Source: an uncultured Chloroflexia bacterium (GTDB taxonomy: Bacteria > Chloroflexota > Anaerolineae > Anaerolineales > UBA4823). From it: 64,000 nt of DNA. Positions within the stretch are counted from its first letter, which is position 1. Every line of letters starts with the position of its first letter. This document shows positions 53,069 through 57,537 of this stretch, one piece after another. A program made the position numbers and the translations under genes. Location: NCBI GenBank assembly GCA_963726315.1, contig CAVSBZ010000003.1, positions 38,978-102,977 on the forward strand, read 5' to 3'. A model generated the notes under the pieces. It searched no databases and was not told the DNA's origin. It saw only the letters and a list, made by a program, of their open reading frames with translations.

Positions 53069-53097
53069 TTGACGGATTACCTGAATGGGATTACAAT
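53069..53097 (+). promoter_or_regulatory. Candidate sigma70 promoter (TTGACG-N17-TACAAT) upstream of tRNA-Ala
   Basis: Hexamers and the 17-nt spacer were read directly. The -10 element ends 15 nt before the tRNA 5' end. Confidence 0.5.
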
Positions 53098-53112
53098 TCT
53101 GGCTACATTTTT

Positions 53113-53185
53113 GGGCCCATAGCGCAGTTGGGAGCGCGTCTCAATGGCATTGAGAAGGCCGAGGGTTCGAATCCCTCTGGGTCCA
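53113..53185 (+). tRNA. tRNA-Ala: tRNA-Ala (anticodon GGC)
   Basis: A 73-nt cloverleaf folded by hand. Acceptor GGGCCCA/TGGGTCC with G3:U70. D-arm GCGC-AGTTGGGA-GCGC. Anticodon arm TCTCA-ATGGCAT-TGAGA with U33 and A37. T-arm GAGGG-TTCGAAT-CCCTC. Discriminator A. CCA is not encoded. Confidence 0.9.
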
Positions 53186-53197
53186 CTAAAAAGTCAT

Positions 53198-53478
53198 GGC
53201 AGGAGTAATAAGCCATCCTTCAGCGAGCCGGGAGAGCGAGGTGTGAGCCCGGCATGGTGCCCAAGGAGCACAATCAATAGGGTTGAACTCGCCTGCCGTC
53301 CTGAGTGATCAGGACAGACTTCAACAGTGAAAACCGTTCATGTGGAATGTAGCTGTTGGCAGGTTTCGCCTGTTATTGCGAATCTGAGTGGCTGAATAAT
53401 CCATAAGTTGATGGATTATGCTGCAACCAGGGTGGTACCGCGGAGATAACCTTCGTCCCTGAATGGACGAAGGTTTTT
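53198..53478 (+). promoter_or_regulatory. T-box riboswitch leader (probable Leu, CUC specifier) with terminator/antiterminator
   Basis: Exact T-box core AGGGTGGTACCGCGG (53429-53443). The antiterminator folds as CAGGG-[UGGUACC bulge]-GCG...CGU-CCCUG. The terminator is ccttcgtcc/ggacgaagg plus TTTTT (53450-53478). The Stem I base is GGCAGG/CCUGCC with 5' AGUA and 3' GAA-CUC-G in the specifier loop. Confidence 0.8.
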
Positions 53479-53511
53479 GTTCTTTAACAAGCGTTATGAT
53501 AGATATGTGGA

Positions 53512-54099
53512 TCAGAAAACGGCATCTGTATTGACGACGTTCAAAAATACATCCACGACTTCCGGATCGAATTGCGTACCTCTGACCCTTTGCAGCTCAG
53601 CGACGGCTTCCTCGTGGGTATACGCCGGTCGATAGTAGCGCTCTTCGACCATCGCCTGATAAGCGTCAGCGATACCAAGGATACGGGCACCGAGAGGAAT
53701 ATTCTTACCGCTTAGACCTTTGGGGTAACCTGTTCCATCAAATTTTTCCTGATGGGCTGAAATGGTTGGGGCGAGCGATGGATAGGCATCGATCGAGCTA
53801 ACGATATTCGAGCCGATCGTGGGATGCATTTTGATGAGCACCCAATCTTGATCGGAGAGGATTGACTTCTTCCGTAAAACGCGATCGGAAATGCCGATTT
53901 TACCGATATCGTGAAGGATGGATGCCCAATACACATTTTCAATTTCGTCATCGCTCATTTTGAGCTCACGCGCTGTGGTGCTTGCCCATTTAGCCACCTT
54001 TGCGCTGTGTTCACCGCTTCTTGAGACACGACGATCGACGAATTTGGCGATGCTGATCAATAATTGAAGCCAAAGTGCCTGTTTTTGCGAGTTGGTCAT
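53512..54099 (-). CDS. Stand-alone HD-GYP domain protein (putative c-di-GMP phosphodiesterase)
   Basis: Contains the HDIGK and FDGTGYPKGL motifs. I moved the start to ATG 54099 (MTNSQKQ...) because the 43 codons upstream in the ORF track look non-coding. Confidence 0.8.
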   Translation of the reverse strand: MTNSQKQALWLQLLISIAKFVDRRVSRSGEHSAKVAKWASTTARELKMSDDEIENVYWASILHDIGKIGISDRVLRKKSILSDQDWVLIKMHPTIGSNIVSSIDAYPSLAPTISAHQEKFDGTGYPKGLSGKNIPLGARILGIADAYQAMVEERYYRPAYTHEEAVAELQRVRGTQFDPEVVDVFLNVVNTDAVF

Positions 54100-54219
54100 A
54101 TTGTCTCTTCTCTGGATGAGTTGGTTTCTGGTTTCACTGATGCAAAATCTGTACCAGCTTATAAAACAAAAATGAGGAGTTATCAAGGATTTAGCGAGTA
54201 ATTTGAAGGAGCATGAAAA

Positions 54220-57200
54220 ATGAAACAAATAATCCAGGCTGACCCCGAAATTATTCGGACCGAACAGACTGAGGCGCGAAAAATAATCGCTTCGCCCATA
54301 GAGTTTGATTTTAAAGCTGTGTTCGACGTGGATGATTATATGTATTTTTACAGCGAGCAGCTAACTGACGAGCGTACTGAAATTGAAGTAAGTACGCTGG
54401 TCAGCTTGCTTGAGTTGGACGCTCCAAAAACCATCCTCGACCTGGCTTGCGGGTATGGCAGGCATACCAACCGCCTGGCAGCCCTGGGTCACACGATGAC
54501 GGGCATCGATTTGATGCCGGGCTTCCTGGAGATTGCCTGGTTGAACGCATTCCAGCAAAAGGTTGATGTAAACTATCAGCAGGGTGATATGCGATCAATC
54601 AGTTTTGAGGATGAATATGACTTCGTCCTGTTGCTCTTCACTGCGTTTGGTTATTTTAGTGATGAGGAGAACCTCAAGGTGTTGGTCAATGCGAAGCGAG
54701 CTTTGAAACCAGGCGGTAAATTGATCTTTGATACGCTTAACCGGGATACATTCTTACGCGAGATGCGCCCATATCTCGTGGTTGAGAAGCAAGGAAACCT
54801 GATGATCGATCGCATTTCTTTCGATAGCGCACAGGGGAGGTTATATAATAAACGGATTGTAATCCGGGATGGAATCCGAAAGGATAAACCGTATTTTACC
54901 CGGTTATATAATCCGAGTGAAATCAGCGCATTGGTCACGCAGGCTGGGTTCGAGATGTCACAAATTTATGGAGGCTGGGAGGCGAGCGAATTAACCGCAG
55001 CATCACGTAGAATGGTGATAATCGCCCAAAAGCCAGAACGAGCTAATAATTTGACAATTAATACTATTGATAAAACGGAGATCCGAATGTCTGAATTACC
55101 AGTTTATAACCCAACAAAAATTGAACCCAAATGGCAGAAAAAATGGGAAAATGACGGTCTTTACCATGCGGTGATTGATCATTCCATTCCAAAGTACTAT
55201 GCCTTGACTATGCTACCGTATACTTCGGGAGACCTACACATTGGGCATTGGTACGCCATGACCCCTCCTGATGCCAGGGCACGTTTTAAACGCATGCAGG
55301 GATTCAACGTAGTGTTCCCAATCGGGTTTGATGCCTTTGGATTGCCTGCTGAAAATGCGGCGATAAGTAAAAGTATCCACCCAAAAATCTGGACCTACGC
55401 CAATATTGACCATATGCGCAAGCAGCTGAAAAGCATGGGTGCGATGTGGGATTGGCAGCGGGAAATGGTATCGTGTGACCCTGAGTATTACCGCTGGACA
55501 CAATGGTTTTTTATTCAGCTGTATAAACAGGGGTTAGCTTACCGAAAATATTCACCTGTTGATTGGTGTCCGAAGGACCAGACCACATTGGCGCGCGAGC
55601 AGGTAATTGGCGATGACCGCCGTTGTGATCGATGCGGTACACCAGTAATTAAAAAAGATCTGGATCAATGGTTTTTCAAGATCACCGATTACGCCGACGA
55701 ATTATTGGATTATTCCACCATCGATTGGCCGGACCGCGTTCGAACTCTTCAGACGAACTGGATTGGCCGATCAGAAGGCGCATCGGTTACCTTCCATACA
55801 GAGCAGGGTGACCCAATCGAAGTCTTTACCACCCGACCGGATACCCTGTGGGGCGTTACTTTCATGGTCCTGGCACCGGAGCATCCTTTGGTCAAGAAAA
55901 TAACTGCTCCAGGCATGAGCTGGGGTATCGAATCGTACATCCAGCAGGCTGGTCGGCAATCAGATAGAGACCGTGAAGCCACTGACAAAGAAAAAACCGG
56001 TGTATTTACAGGCGGATATGCGATCAATCCAATAAACAATGAGAAGATCCCAATCTGGATTGCAGACTACGTGCTGATGACGTATGGCACGGGTGCCATT
56101 ATGGCGGTGCCTGCCCACGACCAGCGAGATTTTGAGTTTGCGCGTAAGTACGGTCTGGAAGTGCGTATAGTCATCCAACCTCCGGATTCTGAGCCACTGG
56201 ATGGCGCCACGATGGAAGCATCTGTCCCTGCGAGTGGTGTAATGGTTAATTCAGGCTCACTGACCGGGACACCTGCTGATAAGGCATTTAATACTGCTAT
56301 TGCCTATATCAAGGAAAGAGGAATTGGTGAAGCGACGGTGAATTATAAGCTACGTGACTGGTTGATATCGCGCCAGCGTTATTGGGGAGCACCTATCCCG
56401 ATGGTCTTTTGTGAAGATTGCGGTTGGAATCCTGTTCCTGACGATCAGCTGCCAGTGTTGCTACCCGATGATGTCGAATGGCAACCCACCGGTGTAAATC
56501 CATTAACCATCCATCCTACCTGGAAGAATACCACGTGTCCAGTCTGTAACAAGCCTGCAATCCGTGAGACAGACACGATGGATACATTCATGTGCTCCTC
56601 CTGGTACCACTTGCGTTATACAAGTCCACATAACAAACAGGCACCATTTGATCGTGCTGATTATGATTATTGGATGCCTGTGGATACCTATACCGGTGGA
56701 ATTGAGCATGCTACGATGCACTTGATGTACACCCGTTTCTTCCATAAGGCGCTGAGGGATATGGGTATTACGAAAGGACCCGAACCCATGATGCAGCTGC
56801 GCAACCAGGGAATTGTCCTCGGTGAGGACAACGATAAAATGTCAAAAAGCAAAGGTAACGTCATTGCGCCCGATGAGCTGGTAGCTCGTTATGGAGCAGA
56901 TACAGTCAGGGCGTATCTGATGTTCTTCGCCCGATGGGATATGGGTGCACCCTGGAGTAGCAGTGGAATGGAGGGTGTTTTCCGCTGGCTACGACGGGCA
57001 TGGACGTTGTTCACCGACCCGGTGGAAAAAGGAAACCCTGAACCCGAGGTGCTGCGTCAATTAAGGCGTAAGCTGCACCAAACATTGAAGCAAGTAACAC
57101 ATGATTTTGAGGTGTTTGAGTTCAACACGATCGTCTCCGGCTTGATGGAGCTGCTCAACGATATGTACAAGGCGCGCGAGAAAGGCGCTGTCGGATCTGC

Positions 57201-57537
57201 CGAATGGGATGAAGCAGTGAATATTTATATCCGCATGATGGCTCCAGTAACCCCTCATATCGCAGAAGAGTTATGGGAGTTCTTAGGCAAACCGTACTCC
57301 ATCCACCAGCAATCCTGGCCGGAAGCTGACCTGGCGGCTGCAGCAGAAGAGATGGTCACCTTGATCGTCCAGGTGGATGGTAAGCTGCGTGACCGTATCA
57401 TGGTACCGGTTGGAATCAGTGAAGATGATGCCAAACGGGCTGCACTGGAAAGTGAGGTCATCACGAAATTCCTCGAAGGTTCAACTCCCCGGAAAGTAAT
57501 CGTGGTCCCGGGAAGATTGGTAAATATAGTAAGGTAA
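54220..57537 (+). CDS. leuS: Single ORF fusing a class I SAM-dependent methyltransferase (about aa 1-280) to leucyl-tRNA synthetase (from the internal ATG at 55087)
   Basis: Methyltransferase motif I ILDLACGYGRH. The LeuRS part starts MSELPVYNPTKIEPKWQKKW and carries HIGH (LHIGH) and KMSKS. There is no stop codon between the two parts. GGAG lies 8 nt upstream of the internal ATG 55087. Confidence 0.85.
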   Translation: MKQIIQADPEIIRTEQTEARKIIASPIEFDFKAVFDVDDYMYFYSEQLTDERTEIEVSTLVSLLELDAPKTILDLACGYGRHTNRLAALGHTMTGIDLMPGFLEIAWLNAFQQKVDVNYQQGDMRSISFEDEYDFVLLLFTAFGYFSDEENLKVLVNAKRALKPGGKLIFDTLNRDTFLREMRPYLVVEKQGNLMIDRISFDSAQGRLYNKRIVIRDGIRKDKPYFTRLYNPSEISALVTQAGFEMSQIYGGWEASELTAASRRMVIIAQKPERANNLTINTIDKTEIRMSELPVYNPTKIEPKWQKKWENDGLYHAVIDHSIPKYYALTMLPYTSGDLHIGHWYAMTPPDARARFKRMQGFNVVFPIGFDAFGLPAENAAISKSIHPKIWTYANIDHMRKQLKSMGAMWDWQREMVSCDPEYYRWTQWFFIQLYKQGLAYRKYSPVDWCPKDQTTLAREQVIGDDRRCDRCGTPVIKKDLDQWFFKITDYADELLDYSTIDWPDRVRTLQTNWIGRSEGASVTFHTEQGDPIEVFTTRPDTLWGVTFMVLAPEHPLVKKITAPGMSWGIESYIQQAGRQSDRDREATDKEKTGVFTGGYAINPINNEKIPIWIADYVLMTYGTGAIMAVPAHDQRDFEFARKYGLEVRIVIQPPDSEPLDGATMEASVPASGVMVNSGSLTGTPADKAFNTAIAYIKERGIGEATVNYKLRDWLISRQRYWGAPIPMVFCEDCGWNPVPDDQLPVLLPDDVEWQPTGVNPLTIHPTWKNTTCPVCNKPAIRETDTMDTFMCSSWYHLRYTSPHNKQAPFDRADYDYWMPVDTYTGGIEHATMHLMYTRFFHKALRDMGITKGPEPMMQLRNQGIVLGEDNDKMSKSKGNVIAPDELVARYGADTVRAYLMFFARWDMGAPWSSSGMEGVFRWLRRAWTLFTDPVEKGNPEPEVLRQLRRKLHQTLKQVTHDFEVFEFNTIVSGLMELLNDMYKAREKGAVGSAEWDEAVNIYIRMMAPVTPHIAEELWEFLGKPYSIHQQSWPEADLAAAAEEMVTLIVQVDGKLRDRIMVPVGISEDDAKRAALESEVITKFLEGSTPRKVIVVPGRLVNIVR

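What the first reader, a model, noticed from the sequence alone, without database searches (positions are those of the whole stretch)
53198..55087. T-box leader (probable Leu specifier) is separated from leuS by a convergent HD-GYP gene, so read-through would be antisense to it
Seen: the T-box terminator ends at 53478. The next plus-strand ORF starts at 54220 and the LeuRS start is at 55087. The interval 53512-54099 holds a real-looking HD-GYP gene on the opposite strand (HDIGK and GYP motifs intact). The specifier loop reads AGUA...GAA-CUC-G. The antiterminator bulge UGGU fits an A73 tRNA. Both fit tRNA-Leu and therefore leuS.

Inference: when uncharged tRNA-Leu accumulates, antitermination would send RNA polymerase about 600 nt antisense through the HD-GYP gene before it reaches the methyltransferase-leuS ORF. 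That could couple amino-acid starvation sensing to repression of a c-di-GMP phosphodiesterase, through transcriptional interference or antisense RNA. Alternatively the leader is an orphan relic.
Basis: partly seen in the sequence, partly recalled or inferred. Interest (0 to 1): 0.65.

Follow-up and report, generated by a model that had tools for sequence, protein, structure and literature searches.

The report
leuS T-box leader crossing antisense gene
A leucine-sensing RNA switch that normally sits directly in front of the leucyl-tRNA synthetase gene is here separated from it by a backwards-facing signalling-enzyme gene, an arrangement kept in at least 14 related species, so switching the synthetase on probably means transcribing straight through that gene.

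Summary
Positions 53198-53485 (+) hold a complete transcription-terminating T-box leader. Its specifier CUC (Leu) is invariant in 80 Anaerolineae leuS leaders and its structure is supported by covariation. In 63 of 80 related species the T-box motif lies within 500 nt of leuS. In others it heads plus-strand operons (ilvE, a leuS paralogue, an unknown domain, a methyltransferase, then leuS). It is therefore the ancestral leuS leader, not an orphan.

In the window and 14 species-level relatives, a stand-alone HD-GYP gene (53512-54099, minus strand; dN/dS about 0.05) sits convergently just behind the T-box terminator. It always carries a conserved sigma-54-type -24/-12 motif (54141-54156, minus strand).

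The leader has no promoter of its own. It starts 11 nt after tRNA-Ala(GGC) and shares that gene's conserved promoter. No conserved promoter, plus-strand terminator or plus-strand ORF lies between the terminator and the methyltransferase-leuS ORF.

Most likely, read-through induced by uncharged tRNA-Leu runs about 734 nt antisense across HD-GYP and its promoter to express methyltransferase-leuS. Repression of HD-GYP would be a plausible consequence, but it is unproven because no usable RNA data exist. This is a new, unusually conserved member of the predicted "antisense-acting riboswitch"/excludon kind.

The parts
53069..53097 (+). Sigma-70-type promoter (TTGACG-17-TACAAT) of the tRNA-Ala / T-box transcription unit
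   Evidence: The promoter scan scores it 10/12. The same gGTTGACG-N17-TACAAT block lies about 16 nt before the tRNA in 10 of 11 close-clade relatives (L085's contig ends there), and a similar one in L014 and L087.
53113..53186 (+). tRNA-Ala(GGC), with a G3:U70 pair, A73 and no encoded CCA. It ends 11 nt before Stem I.
   Evidence: ARAGORN and Rfam tRNA at 66.3 bits. tRNA-Ala(GGC) lies upstream of the T-box in 27 of 28 relatives scanned, immediately so in most (L087 about 2.1 kb, L053 about 3.8 kb away). Metatranscriptome contigs span 53112-53243 and 53132-53251.
53198..53297 (+). T-box Stem I. Base helix 53198-53203 / 53292-53297. Specifier loop with AGUA on the 5' side and GAA-CUC-G on the 3' side. 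AG bulge CAGCGA 53221-53226. Distal stem-loop 53227-53253.
   Evidence: Alignment A1 of 80 leaders. Covariation: 92.6% paired, 21 of 24 pairs with compensatory changes, 0 of 500 shuffles reach this.
53288..53290 (+). Specifier codon CUC (Leu), followed by G53291
   Evidence: AACUCG is invariant in 80 of 80 leaders. The next bases, CCUGCC, are paired in the base helix.
53430..53459 (+). T-box sequence and antiterminator. The 7-nt bulge UGGUACC is at 53433-53439; UGGU pairs with the tRNA 3' end ACCA (A73).
   Evidence: Rfam alignment. 100% paired in 76 of 76 leaders. Folds at -12.4 kcal/mol.
53448..53485 (+). Intrinsic terminator: an 11-bp hairpin at 53448-53475 plus UUUGUUCUUU. It is mutually exclusive with the antiterminator.
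   Evidence: Terminator scan. Folds at -17.7 kcal/mol, z -5.1. Conserved in all relatives.
53486..54219 (+). About 734 nt that a read-through transcript must cross. It is non-coding on this strand and antisense to the whole HD-GYP gene, its 5' UTR and its promoter.
   Evidence: No plus-strand terminator. No plus-strand frame stays open across orthologues. No conserved sigma-70-like promoter before the methyltransferase.
53512..54099 (-). Stand-alone HD-GYP domain protein of 195 aa, a probable cyclic-dinucleotide phosphodiesterase. Its stop codon lies 26 nt beyond the T-box terminator's T-run.
   Evidence: Pfam HD_5 1.1e-38. Best solved relatives are V-cGAP3 5Z7C (6e-40) and PmGH 4MCW. dN/dS is 0.045-0.064. 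Orthologues of 49% identity or more occur only in this position.
54141..54156 (-). Sigma-54-type -24/-12 promoter motif TGGTAC-AGATT-TTGCA, 41 nt upstream of the HD-GYP start codon
   Evidence: It is the only match in the window and the only conserved block of the intergenic region. It is present in all 15 loci with this layout. 16 of 18 matches in 1.11 Mb of related loci are at this gene, against 3.5 +/- 1.6 in shuffles.
54220..55086 (+). Class I SAM-dependent methyltransferase with no specific family assignment. Here it runs in frame, without a stop codon, into LeuRS.
   Evidence: Pfam Methyltransf_25/11. NCBIfam hits are all below cut-off. The junction was compared across relatives.
55087..57537 (+). 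Leucyl-tRNA synthetase (leuS), with its own GGAG ribosome-binding site upstream of ATG 55087
   Evidence: TIGR00396 1007.6 bits against a cut-off of 548. Pfam editing and anticodon-binding domains. The GGAG is conserved in relatives.

Best explanation
This is the ancestral leucine-specific (CUC) transcription-attenuation T-box leader of leuS in Anaerolineae.

**Proposed mechanism**
1. Transcription starts at the conserved sigma-70-type promoter of tRNA-Ala(GGC). It runs through the tRNA and, 11 nt later, into the T-box.
2. When tRNA-Leu is charged, the 53448-53485 terminator ends the transcript.
3. When uncharged tRNA-Leu(GAG) pairs with the CUC specifier and with the UGGU bulge, the antiterminator forms.
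4. RNA polymerase then reads on for about 734 nt of non-coding RNA. This RNA is antisense to a convergently inserted stand-alone HD-GYP phosphodiesterase gene and to its sigma-54-type promoter.
5. Polymerase then reaches the methyltransferase-leuS reading frame.

The HD-GYP gene is thus embedded in the leader-to-gene spacer of a T-box operon, an excludon-like layout. Read-through and HD-GYP transcription must physically interfere. Possible routes are polymerase collision, dislodging a sigma-54 closed complex, or double-stranded RNA. Whether that interference is strong or selected for is not known.

**Shown by sequence and comparison:** all the parts, their order, their conservation and the specifier.

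**Inferred:** the tRNA-dependent read-through, its reaching leuS, tRNA processing by RNase P/Z, and any effect on HD-GYP.
For: **The T-box and its target**
- T-box anatomy and covariation are established.
- The specifier CUC is invariant in 80 leaders.
- The T-box motif lies within 500 nt upstream of leuS in 63 of 80 species.
- It heads plus-strand operons in others: T-box-ilvE-leuS, T-box-methyltransferase-leuS in L010, and T-box-(ilvE)-LeuRS2-X-methyltransferase-LeuRS in L162 and L163. The genes downstream in the window therefore belong historically to the T-box unit.

**The leader is still under selection**
- In the HD-GYP clade the leader is 75-86% identical to the window's, although dS is at least 1.

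**One transcription unit**
- Only 11 nt separate tRNA-Ala from Stem I, and the only conserved promoter lies upstream of the tRNA.
- Metatranscriptome contigs join the tRNA to Stem I.
- No plus-strand terminator lies between the T-box terminator and 54220.
- No conserved sigma-70-like promoter is found there.
- No conserved plus-strand ORF is found there.

**The embedded gene**
- HD-GYP is a constrained gene (dN/dS about 0.05).
- It has a conserved -24/-12 motif.
Against: - No transcript data exist. No RNA run holds the HD-GYP or methyltransferase region of the window or of two relatives.
- A 734-nt untranslated antisense stretch could be cut short by Rho or by a roadblock. Its G/C skew gives no clear signal either way.
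- A non-consensus or weak promoter for methyltransferase-leuS, in 54100-54219 or inside HD-GYP, cannot be excluded by pattern scans.
- HD-GYP-bearing species are not monophyletic in a rough LeuRS tree, and close relatives lack the gene. The embedded gene is therefore dispensable, and its retention may be mere inheritance.
- Whether the organism encodes RpoN and an enhancer-binding protein was not testable. None lies in the window or the fetched loci.
Confidence: 0.6

Rival explanations
1. Adaptive coupling. The arrangement is kept because leucine starvation, sensed by the T-box, is meant to silence the HD-GYP phosphodiesterase. Convergent transcription or antisense RNA would link aminoacylation status to cyclic-dinucleotide signalling while also inducing leuS.
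For: - The convergent pair, with 20-50 nt between terminator and stop codon, persists in 15 loci. Over the same span the upstream neighbours differ and the downstream genes were reshuffled: LeuRS2 lost, X domain gained, fused or decayed, methyltransferase fused.
- All orthologues of this HD-GYP (49% identity or more) are found only in this position.
- A sigma-54 promoter forms a long-lived closed complex. From established knowledge of transcriptional interference, such a promoter is the type most sensitive to 'sitting-duck' interference.
Against: - There is no expression data.
- The gene is absent from relatives interleaved with the carriers in the LeuRS tree, so it is dispensable.
- A published survey found 107 of 15,851 T-boxes in an antisense configuration. 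This was not more than chance, and several were attributed to fortuitous insertions (PMC9943018).
- Synteny can persist by descent alone.
Confidence: 0.3
2. Decoupled leader. Methyltransferase-leuS now has its own unrecognised promoter. The T-box only terminates the tRNA-Ala unit and gates an antisense RNA against HD-GYP, making it a pure antisense-acting riboswitch.
For: - The read-through path to leuS is long: 734 nt untranslated to the methyltransferase and 1.6 kb to the LeuRS start.
- Weak sigma-70-like matches occur in several relatives, though at non-homologous positions.
- Two validated precedents exist of riboswitches that control only an antisense RNA (PMC2566862; Mellin 2013, cited in PMC9943018).
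Against: - No conserved promoter is seen. In the window, only 63 nt lie between the sigma-54 motif and the methyltransferase ATG, with no acceptable -35/-10 pair.
- All other Anaerolineae examined keep leuS under this T-box, including long multi-gene operons. Loss of that control here would be the less parsimonious history.
Confidence: 0.15
3. Orphan relic. The leader is a decaying remnant with no present function.
For: The Rfam score is below the gathering threshold, and the leader does not abut a plus-strand gene.
Against: - The sub-threshold score is a property of the whole Anaerolineae family: 0 of 11 leaders reach the gathering score, including those that abut leuS.
- The specifier, AG bulge, distal loop, T-box bulge, antiterminator and terminator are all intact.
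- The leader is 75-86% identical across species whose synonymous sites are saturated.
Confidence: 0.02

Closest known systems
Canonical transcription-attenuation T-box leaders of aminoacyl-tRNA synthetase genes (Bacillus-type; Rfam RF00230), including leuS, ileS and valS leaders. T-boxes are already reported in Chloroflexi (PMC2494555, PMC3766115).
   Same: - Stem I with a specifier loop (AGUA / GAA-codon-purine), an AG bulge and a distal loop.
- The T-box sequence with a UGGN bulge.
- Mutually exclusive antiterminator and terminator.
- A specifier that matches the regulated synthetase.
   Different: - About 734 nt and a complete convergent gene lie between the terminator and the first regulated ORF, instead of tens of nucleotides.
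- The leader has no promoter of its own and follows a tRNA-Ala gene.
- There is an extra hairpin after Stem I and an extra covarying hairpin within Stem I.
- The whole Anaerolineae family scores below Rfam's gathering threshold.
Predicted 'antisense-acting riboswitches' (Serrano-Gutierrez & Merino 2023, PMC9943018). These include 107 T-boxes, and cases where a transposase landed between a T-box and its canonical gene.
   Same: A riboswitch whose read-through is antisense to the adjacent convergent gene. The inserted gene sits between a T-box and the gene it ancestrally controlled.
   Different: - Here the configuration is conserved in at least 14 further species, with a constrained, non-mobile gene that carries its own conserved promoter motif. 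It is not a one-off insertion.
- HD-GYP is not mentioned in the main text of that paper (its supplements were not searched).
The S-box (SAM) riboswitch driving antisense RNAs against the ubiG-mccBA operon of Clostridium acetobutylicum, which also carries a Cys T-box on the sense side (Andre 2008, PMC2566862).
   Same: Convergent promoters, each followed by an antitermination element. Riboswitch-gated antisense transcription across a coding region.
   Different: - There the T-box is the sense regulator and the S-box gives the antisense RNA.
- Here one T-box would give both the sense output (leuS) and the antisense output (HD-GYP).
- The present case has no experimental support.
The B12-riboswitch-regulated antisense RNA AspocR of Listeria monocytogenes (Mellin 2013; cited in PMC9943018), and the Listeria 'excludon' concept (review PMC7154746).
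   Same: A ligand-gated terminator decides whether a long antisense transcript covers a neighbouring regulatory gene. In excludons, a long 5' UTR of one operon overlaps an oppositely oriented gene and represses it while expressing its own operon.
   Different: - The sensor here is a tRNA-binding T-box.
- The overlapped gene is a sigma-54-type-promoted HD-GYP enzyme.
- The organism is a Chloroflexota member.
- No transcript evidence is available yet.

Membership tests
T-box leader (tRNA-sensing transcription attenuator) | Stem I with a specifier loop that presents a codon followed by a purine, next to the base helix, with an AGUA/S-turn motif on the 5' side | tested here: met
   GGCAGG / CCUGCC base helix, AGUAAUAA on the 5' side and GAA-CUC-G on the 3' side. 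The base helix is 93.8% paired, with compensatory changes in 5 of 6 pairs.
T-box leader (tRNA-sensing transcription attenuator) | Stem I distal platform: AG bulge and distal loop motifs | tested here: met
   CAG(C/A)GA is invariant or nearly so, and the distal loop ..GGUG..A.. is conserved. The distal stem is 97.5% paired and covaries.
T-box leader (tRNA-sensing transcription attenuator) | Conserved T-box sequence forming the antiterminator, with a 7-nt bulge UGGNACC | tested here: met
   AGGGUGGUACCGCG at 53429-53442. The antiterminator helices are 100% paired in 76 leaders.
T-box leader (tRNA-sensing transcription attenuator) | An intrinsic terminator that competes with the antiterminator | tested here: met
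   An 11-bp hairpin at 53448-53475 shares CGUCC with the antiterminator and is followed by a T-run. It is conserved in all relatives.
T-box leader (tRNA-sensing transcription attenuator) | The specifier matches the amino acid of the downstream gene(s) | tested here: met
   CUC = Leu. The downstream plus-strand genes end in leuS here. In 80 relatives they are leuS, ilvE-leuS or a leuS paralogue.
T-box leader (tRNA-sensing transcription attenuator) | Rfam RF00230 covariance model at the gathering score (an operational criterion, not a mechanistic one) | tested here: not met
   56.4 bits against 93 (E = 2.6e-11 in a local scan), with Stem I mis-aligned. 0 of 10 related leuS leaders reach it either. 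The shortfall is family-wide, so it is not a sign of decay.
T-box leader (tRNA-sensing transcription attenuator) | Binding of uncharged cognate tRNA and tRNA-dependent antitermination | not testable with these tools
   This needs in vitro transcription or binding assays. tRNA-Leu(GAG) is not in the window.
HD-GYP cyclic-dinucleotide phosphodiesterase | HD-GYP domain (Pfam HD_5) with the HD and GYP motifs | tested here: met
   HD_5 1.1e-38 over 6-170 of 170 profile positions. LHDIGK and FDGTGYP are present. Homologous to 5Z7C, 4MCW and 4R8Z.
HD-GYP cyclic-dinucleotide phosphodiesterase | Full set of metal ligands (the HHE pair) and activity on c-di-GMP | tested here: inconclusive
   The motif is AHQE rather than HHE in the four orthologues that could be read (window, L085, L014, L087). 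The best solved match is a 3'3'-cGAMP-specific enzyme. Substrate and activity need an assay.
Sigma-54 (RpoN)-dependent promoter | -24 GG and -12 GC elements with the TGGCAC-N5-TTGCA spacing, upstream of a gene | tested here: met
   TGGTAC-AGATT-TTGCA lies 41 nt before the ATG. TGG..A..N5..TTGCA is invariant in 15 loci while the spacer varies. L087 has the perfect consensus.
Sigma-54 (RpoN)-dependent promoter | The organism encodes RpoN and an enhancer-binding protein | not testable with these tools
   No GAFTGA or RpoN-box protein is found in the window or in 1.1 Mb of related loci. The literature says only that 'some Chloroflexi' have sigma-54 (PMC3162934).
Antisense-acting riboswitch / excludon | The riboswitch-controlled transcript overlaps an oppositely oriented gene | tested here: met
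   The geometry is met. The HD-GYP stop codon lies 26 nt after the T-run, and the whole gene and its promoter lie between the terminator and the next plus-strand ORF.
Antisense-acting riboswitch / excludon | The long read-through transcript exists and lowers expression of the overlapped gene | not testable with these tools
   No RNA run covers the region.

The most novel reading that the evidence does not exclude
A T-box riboswitch used as a two-output device. On leucine starvation, the same tRNA-gated read-through would both induce leuS and silence a sigma-54-dependent cyclic-dinucleotide phosphodiesterase, by driving polymerase through the gene and over its poised promoter. This would wire tRNA charging status directly into second-messenger signalling in a lineage of Anaerolineae. 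Conversely, sigma-54 activation of HD-GYP would damp leuS induction.
Probability: 0.3. Interest if true: 0.7.

Novelty: new member of a known kind. Interest (0 to 1): 0.45.

Why it matters
- **A conserved example.** If the read-through is real, this would be an evolutionarily conserved case of a T-box acting across a convergent gene. Only two antisense-acting riboswitches have been validated so far (SAM and B12). The many predicted T-box cases have been read as accidents.
- **A possible new link.** It would connect amino-acid/tRNA charging status to cyclic-dinucleotide turnover, in a phylum (Chloroflexota) where gene regulation is almost unstudied.
- **An annotation gap.** Standard annotation with Rfam at gathering score misses the leuS T-box in all 11 Anaerolineae leaders tested.
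- **An unusual transcription unit.** An essential synthetase gene appears to be transcribed from a tRNA-gene promoter.

Tried and rejected
1. **RNA evidence.** Runs holding the window region are almost all DNA metagenomes. The two metatranscriptomes with some signal cover only tRNA-Ala and the T-box. No RNA runs hold the HD-GYP/methyltransferase region of L008 or L005.
2. **Rfam at gathering score.** There is no T-box hit in the window or in 10 relatives. This reflects a threshold and alignment problem, not absence.
3. **An alanine specifier (GCC).** I considered this because tRNA-Ala(GGC) lies directly upstream and CUC-GCC is contiguous. I rejected it because GCC lies in the covarying base helix and the purine rule fits CUC-G.
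4. **An independent promoter for methyltransferase-leuS.** Sigma-70 pattern scans of 14 loci gave only weak matches at non-homologous positions. This is negative evidence only.
5. **A conserved plus-strand ORF opposite HD-GYP.** None was found.
6. **A Rho-avoidance signature.** HD-GYP's coding-strand GC skew is -0.017, second lowest of 47 genes, with z about -1.6. This is not significant.
7. **RpoN or enhancer-binding proteins.** None was found in the window or the loci by motif search or Pfam. A literature search for rpoN in Anaerolinea was uninformative.
8. **Slower synonymous change in HD-GYP than in LeuRS.** Such a difference could point to a constraint on the antisense RNA. It is small: pS 0.55-0.70 against 0.62-0.81. 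I did not pursue it.
9. **A single-origin test.** A rough NJ tree of LeuRS does not place all HD-GYP-bearing species together. The tree has no support values, so the history stays unresolved.

Full report
**What is at the locus.** The window comes from a member of the Anaerolineae (Chloroflexota). Its LeuRS is 80-87% identical to those of uncultured MAGs. On the plus strand lie, in order:
- a sigma-70-type promoter, TTGACG-17-TACAAT, at 53069-53097;
- tRNA-Ala(GGC) at 53113-53186;
- 11 nt later, a T-box leader at 53198-53485;
- a single 1105-aa ORF at 54220-57537.

The N-terminal 289 residues of that ORF are a generic class I SAM methyltransferase. The remainder, from ATG 55087, is bacterial LeuRS (TIGR00396, 1007 bits). 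Between the leader and this ORF, on the minus strand, lies a 195-aa stand-alone HD-GYP protein at 53512-54099 (Pfam HD_5, 1e-38).

**The T-box is real and leucine-specific.**
- Rfam's T-box model matches 53274-53463 with E = 2.6e-11. The score is only 56.4 bits against a gathering score of 93, because the model mis-places Stem I.
- Read directly, Stem I is 53198-53297. It has a GGCAGG/CCUGCC base helix, AGUA on the 5' side of the specifier loop, GAA-CUC-G on the 3' side, an AG bulge (CAGCGA) and a distal stem-loop.
- I collected leuS loci from 80 species-level genomes. The T-box motif GGGUGGUACC(G/A)CG lies upstream of leuS, on the same strand, in all loci whose contig reaches far enough.
- In an alignment of 80 Stem I regions, AACUCG is invariant.
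- The proposed helices are 92.6% paired, and 21 of 24 pairs carry compensatory changes. No shuffle out of 500 and no slid register comes close.
- The antiterminator is paired in 76 of 76 leaders.
- The terminator folds at -17.7 kcal/mol and the antiterminator at -12.4 kcal/mol.
- The bulge UGGU fits an A73 tRNA.
- An alanine reading (GCC, suggested by the tRNA-Ala next door) is excluded, because GCC lies inside the covarying base helix.
- None of 10 related leaders reaches Rfam's gathering score. The low score is a family trait, not decay.

**Whose leader is it?**
- In 63 of 80 species the T-box motif lies within 500 nt upstream of the leuS start.
- In four species a branched-chain aminotransferase gene (Aminotran_4) lies between, on the same strand.
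- In L010 the order is T-box, methyltransferase, leuS.
- In a further group the T-box heads long plus-strand operons. These are T-box-(ilvE)-LeuRS2-X-methyltransferase-LeuRS. LeuRS2 is a 45-50% identical paralogue. X is a roughly 260-aa domain with no Pfam match.

Relatives do not show the leader abutting some other, lost gene. They show it abutting leuS or operons that end in leuS. The methyltransferase in the window is a historical member of that operon.

**The embedded gene.** The layout T-box terminator, convergent HD-GYP, then plus-strand genes is found in the window and in 14 species-level genomes.
- Eleven are close relatives: L001-L005, L008, L017, L081, L083-L085. Their HD-GYP is 79-92% identical to the window's.
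- Three are deeper: L014, L087/L009 and L165, at 49-53% identity. There the next gene is LeuRS2.
- Every HD-GYP homologue at 49% identity or more sits in this position. None of those at or below 48% in the HD-GYP search has a T-box within 4 kb.
- The HD-GYP stop codon always lies 20-50 nt beyond the terminator's T-run.
- The gene is under strong purifying selection (dN/dS 0.045-0.064), while synonymous sites are saturated (dS of 1 or more).
- Against that background, the leader is 75-86% identical within the close clade. The T-box is therefore still selected, and 'orphan relic' is rejected.
- The closest solved structures are V-cGAP3, a 3'3'-cGAMP phosphodiesterase (6e-40), and PmGH.
- The orthologues that could be read share AHQE in place of HHE. 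The substrate is therefore open.

**A new element: the HD-GYP promoter.**
- The only conserved block between the HD-GYP start and the next plus-strand gene reads, on the minus strand, CTGGTAC-AGATT-TTGCATC at 54141-54156. This is the sigma-54 -24/-12 consensus TGGCAC-N5-TTGCA, placed 41 nt before the ATG.
- TGG, the A, and TTGCA are invariant in all 15 loci, while the 5-nt spacer varies. L087 has the perfect consensus.
- In 1.11 Mb of related DNA, 16 of 18 matches to the motif are at this gene. Shuffles give 3.5 +/- 1.6.
- I could not establish that these organisms encode RpoN or an enhancer-binding protein. None is in the window or the loci. The literature reports sigma-54 in 'some Chloroflexi' only (PMC3162934).
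- I hold the sigma-54 reading at about 0.6.

**One transcription unit.**
- In the close clade only 9-12 nt separate tRNA-Ala(GGC) from Stem I in the loci checked, which leaves no room for a promoter.
- The conserved promoter, gGTTGACG-N17-TACAAT, lies upstream of the tRNA.
- Two metatranscriptome contigs join the tRNA to Stem I. One spans 53112-53243 without a mismatch. DNA carry-over cannot be excluded.
- Downstream of the terminator I found no plus-strand terminator before 54220.
- No plus-strand reading frame stays open across the orthologues.
- No sigma-70-like promoter is conserved in position.
- In the window, only 63 nt lie between the sigma-54 motif and the methyltransferase ATG.

**Most likely mechanism (inferred).**
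1. Transcription from the tRNA-Ala promoter normally ends at 53485.
2. Uncharged tRNA-Leu(GAG) stabilises the antiterminator.
3. Polymerase then runs about 734 nt antisense through HD-GYP, its 5' UTR and its -24/-12 promoter, and on into methyltransferase-leuS.
4. Interference with HD-GYP expression follows physically. It could act by collision, by displacing a poised sigma-54 holoenzyme, or by duplex RNA.

The strength of this interference, and whether it is selected for, are unknown.

**What limits the claim.**
- No RNA data cover the region.
- The long untranslated stretch could be terminated by Rho. Base skew gives no significant signal either way.
- Carriers of the embedded gene are not monophyletic in a rough LeuRS tree, so the gene has been lost or moved and is dispensable.

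**Comparison with what is known.**
- T-boxes in Chloroflexi and leuS T-boxes are known (PMC2494555, PMC3766115).
- Riboswitch-gated antisense transcription has two validated cases: the SAM riboswitch at ubiG-mccBA (PMC2566862) and the B12 riboswitch with AspocR.
- A 2023 survey predicted 107 antisense-configured T-boxes. This was no more than chance, and some were explained by insertions between a T-box and its gene (PMC9943018).
- The present case has that architecture and resembles an excludon (PMC7154746).
- What sets it apart is conservation across at least 14 further species, a constrained non-mobile embedded gene with its own conserved promoter motif, and retention of the sense target.
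- I therefore file it as a new, unusually well-conserved member of a known (mostly predicted) kind, of moderate interest. The adaptive-coupling reading is held at about 0.3.

Noticed in passing
window 53069-53203; L001-L087 equivalents: The leuS T-box has no promoter of its own in the close clade. It starts 9-12 nt after tRNA-Ala(GGC) and shares that gene's conserved TTGACG-17-TACAAT promoter. Most other Anaerolineae have tRNA-Ala(CGC)-tRNA-Ala(GGC)-T-box-leuS. A few (for example L024) have an extended -10 promoter between tRNA and leader. Two metatranscriptome contigs span tRNA to Stem I.
   Followed up: partly
window 54220-57537 (junction 55030-55087); L081: The methyltransferase and LeuRS form one in-frame ORF (1105 aa) because the methyltransferase stop codon is missing. 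The closest relative, L081, shares this (1110 aa; the same ...AAACC(A/T) GAA CG...). Ten other relatives keep a stop codon. It is therefore a derived fusion and not a sequencing error. The GGAG ribosome-binding site before the LeuRS ATG is retained.
   Followed up: partly
window 53217-53220, 53257-53271 (Stem I); alignment A1: The 3' strand of a covarying Stem I helix (53263-53266, pairing with 53217-53220) lies in the 7-nt loop of a second covarying hairpin (53257-53260 / 53268-53271). Both are supported in 80 leaders. With only one linker nucleotide a simultaneous pseudoknot looks strained, so they may be alternative conformers.
   Followed up: partly
window 53198-53485; L001, L003, L010, L014, L024, L035, L047, L053, L077, L081: Rfam RF00230 at gathering score finds none of the 11 Anaerolineae leuS T-boxes tested, although all are structurally complete. 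Standard annotation would miss this whole family.
   Followed up: yes
window 53298-53315: An extra hairpin (GUCCUGA-GUGA-UCAGGAC) lies between Stem I and Stem II. A hairpin of variable sequence appears at this place in the related leaders read by eye. The Rfam model mistook it for Stem I.
   Followed up: no
L014 3338-5927, L009 3-1232, L162-L183, L220, L226, L230: A subgroup of Anaerolineae carries a second, 45-50% identical leuS paralogue (LeuRS2) directly behind the T-box and upstream of the ordinary leuS. A roughly 260-aa domain without any Pfam match (MS.IL.TTWYPRGELPRF...) often lies between them, with or without the methyltransferase. In L002, L004, L005, L017 and L084 that domain is fused to the methyltransferase. 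In L001 it looks decayed.
   Followed up: partly
L162, L163, L165, L169, L170, L183, L226, L230 (ordinary LeuRS): In genomes that also have LeuRS2, the tblastn match of the ordinary LeuRS to the window's LeuRS breaks into two pieces, with a gap of about 120 residues in the middle. This may reflect a divergent or missing segment.
   Followed up: no
L039, L052, L064, L066 (leuS 5' end): Some Anaerolineae LeuRS proteins carry a lysine- and alanine-rich N-terminal extension (MATTKKKTAKKTTVKKK...) of about 70-90 residues.
   Followed up: no
window 53476-53500; close-clade relatives: The sequence just after the terminator T-run (GTTCTTTAACAACC) is conserved within the close clade beyond what a T-run needs. 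On the minus strand it is the HD-GYP 3' UTR. The minus-strand copy of the terminator hairpin (-20.1 kcal/mol for the 75-nt minus-strand stretch 53440-53514 that contains it) is followed by AUCUCC rather than a U-run. Where HD-GYP transcripts end is therefore unclear.
   Followed up: partly
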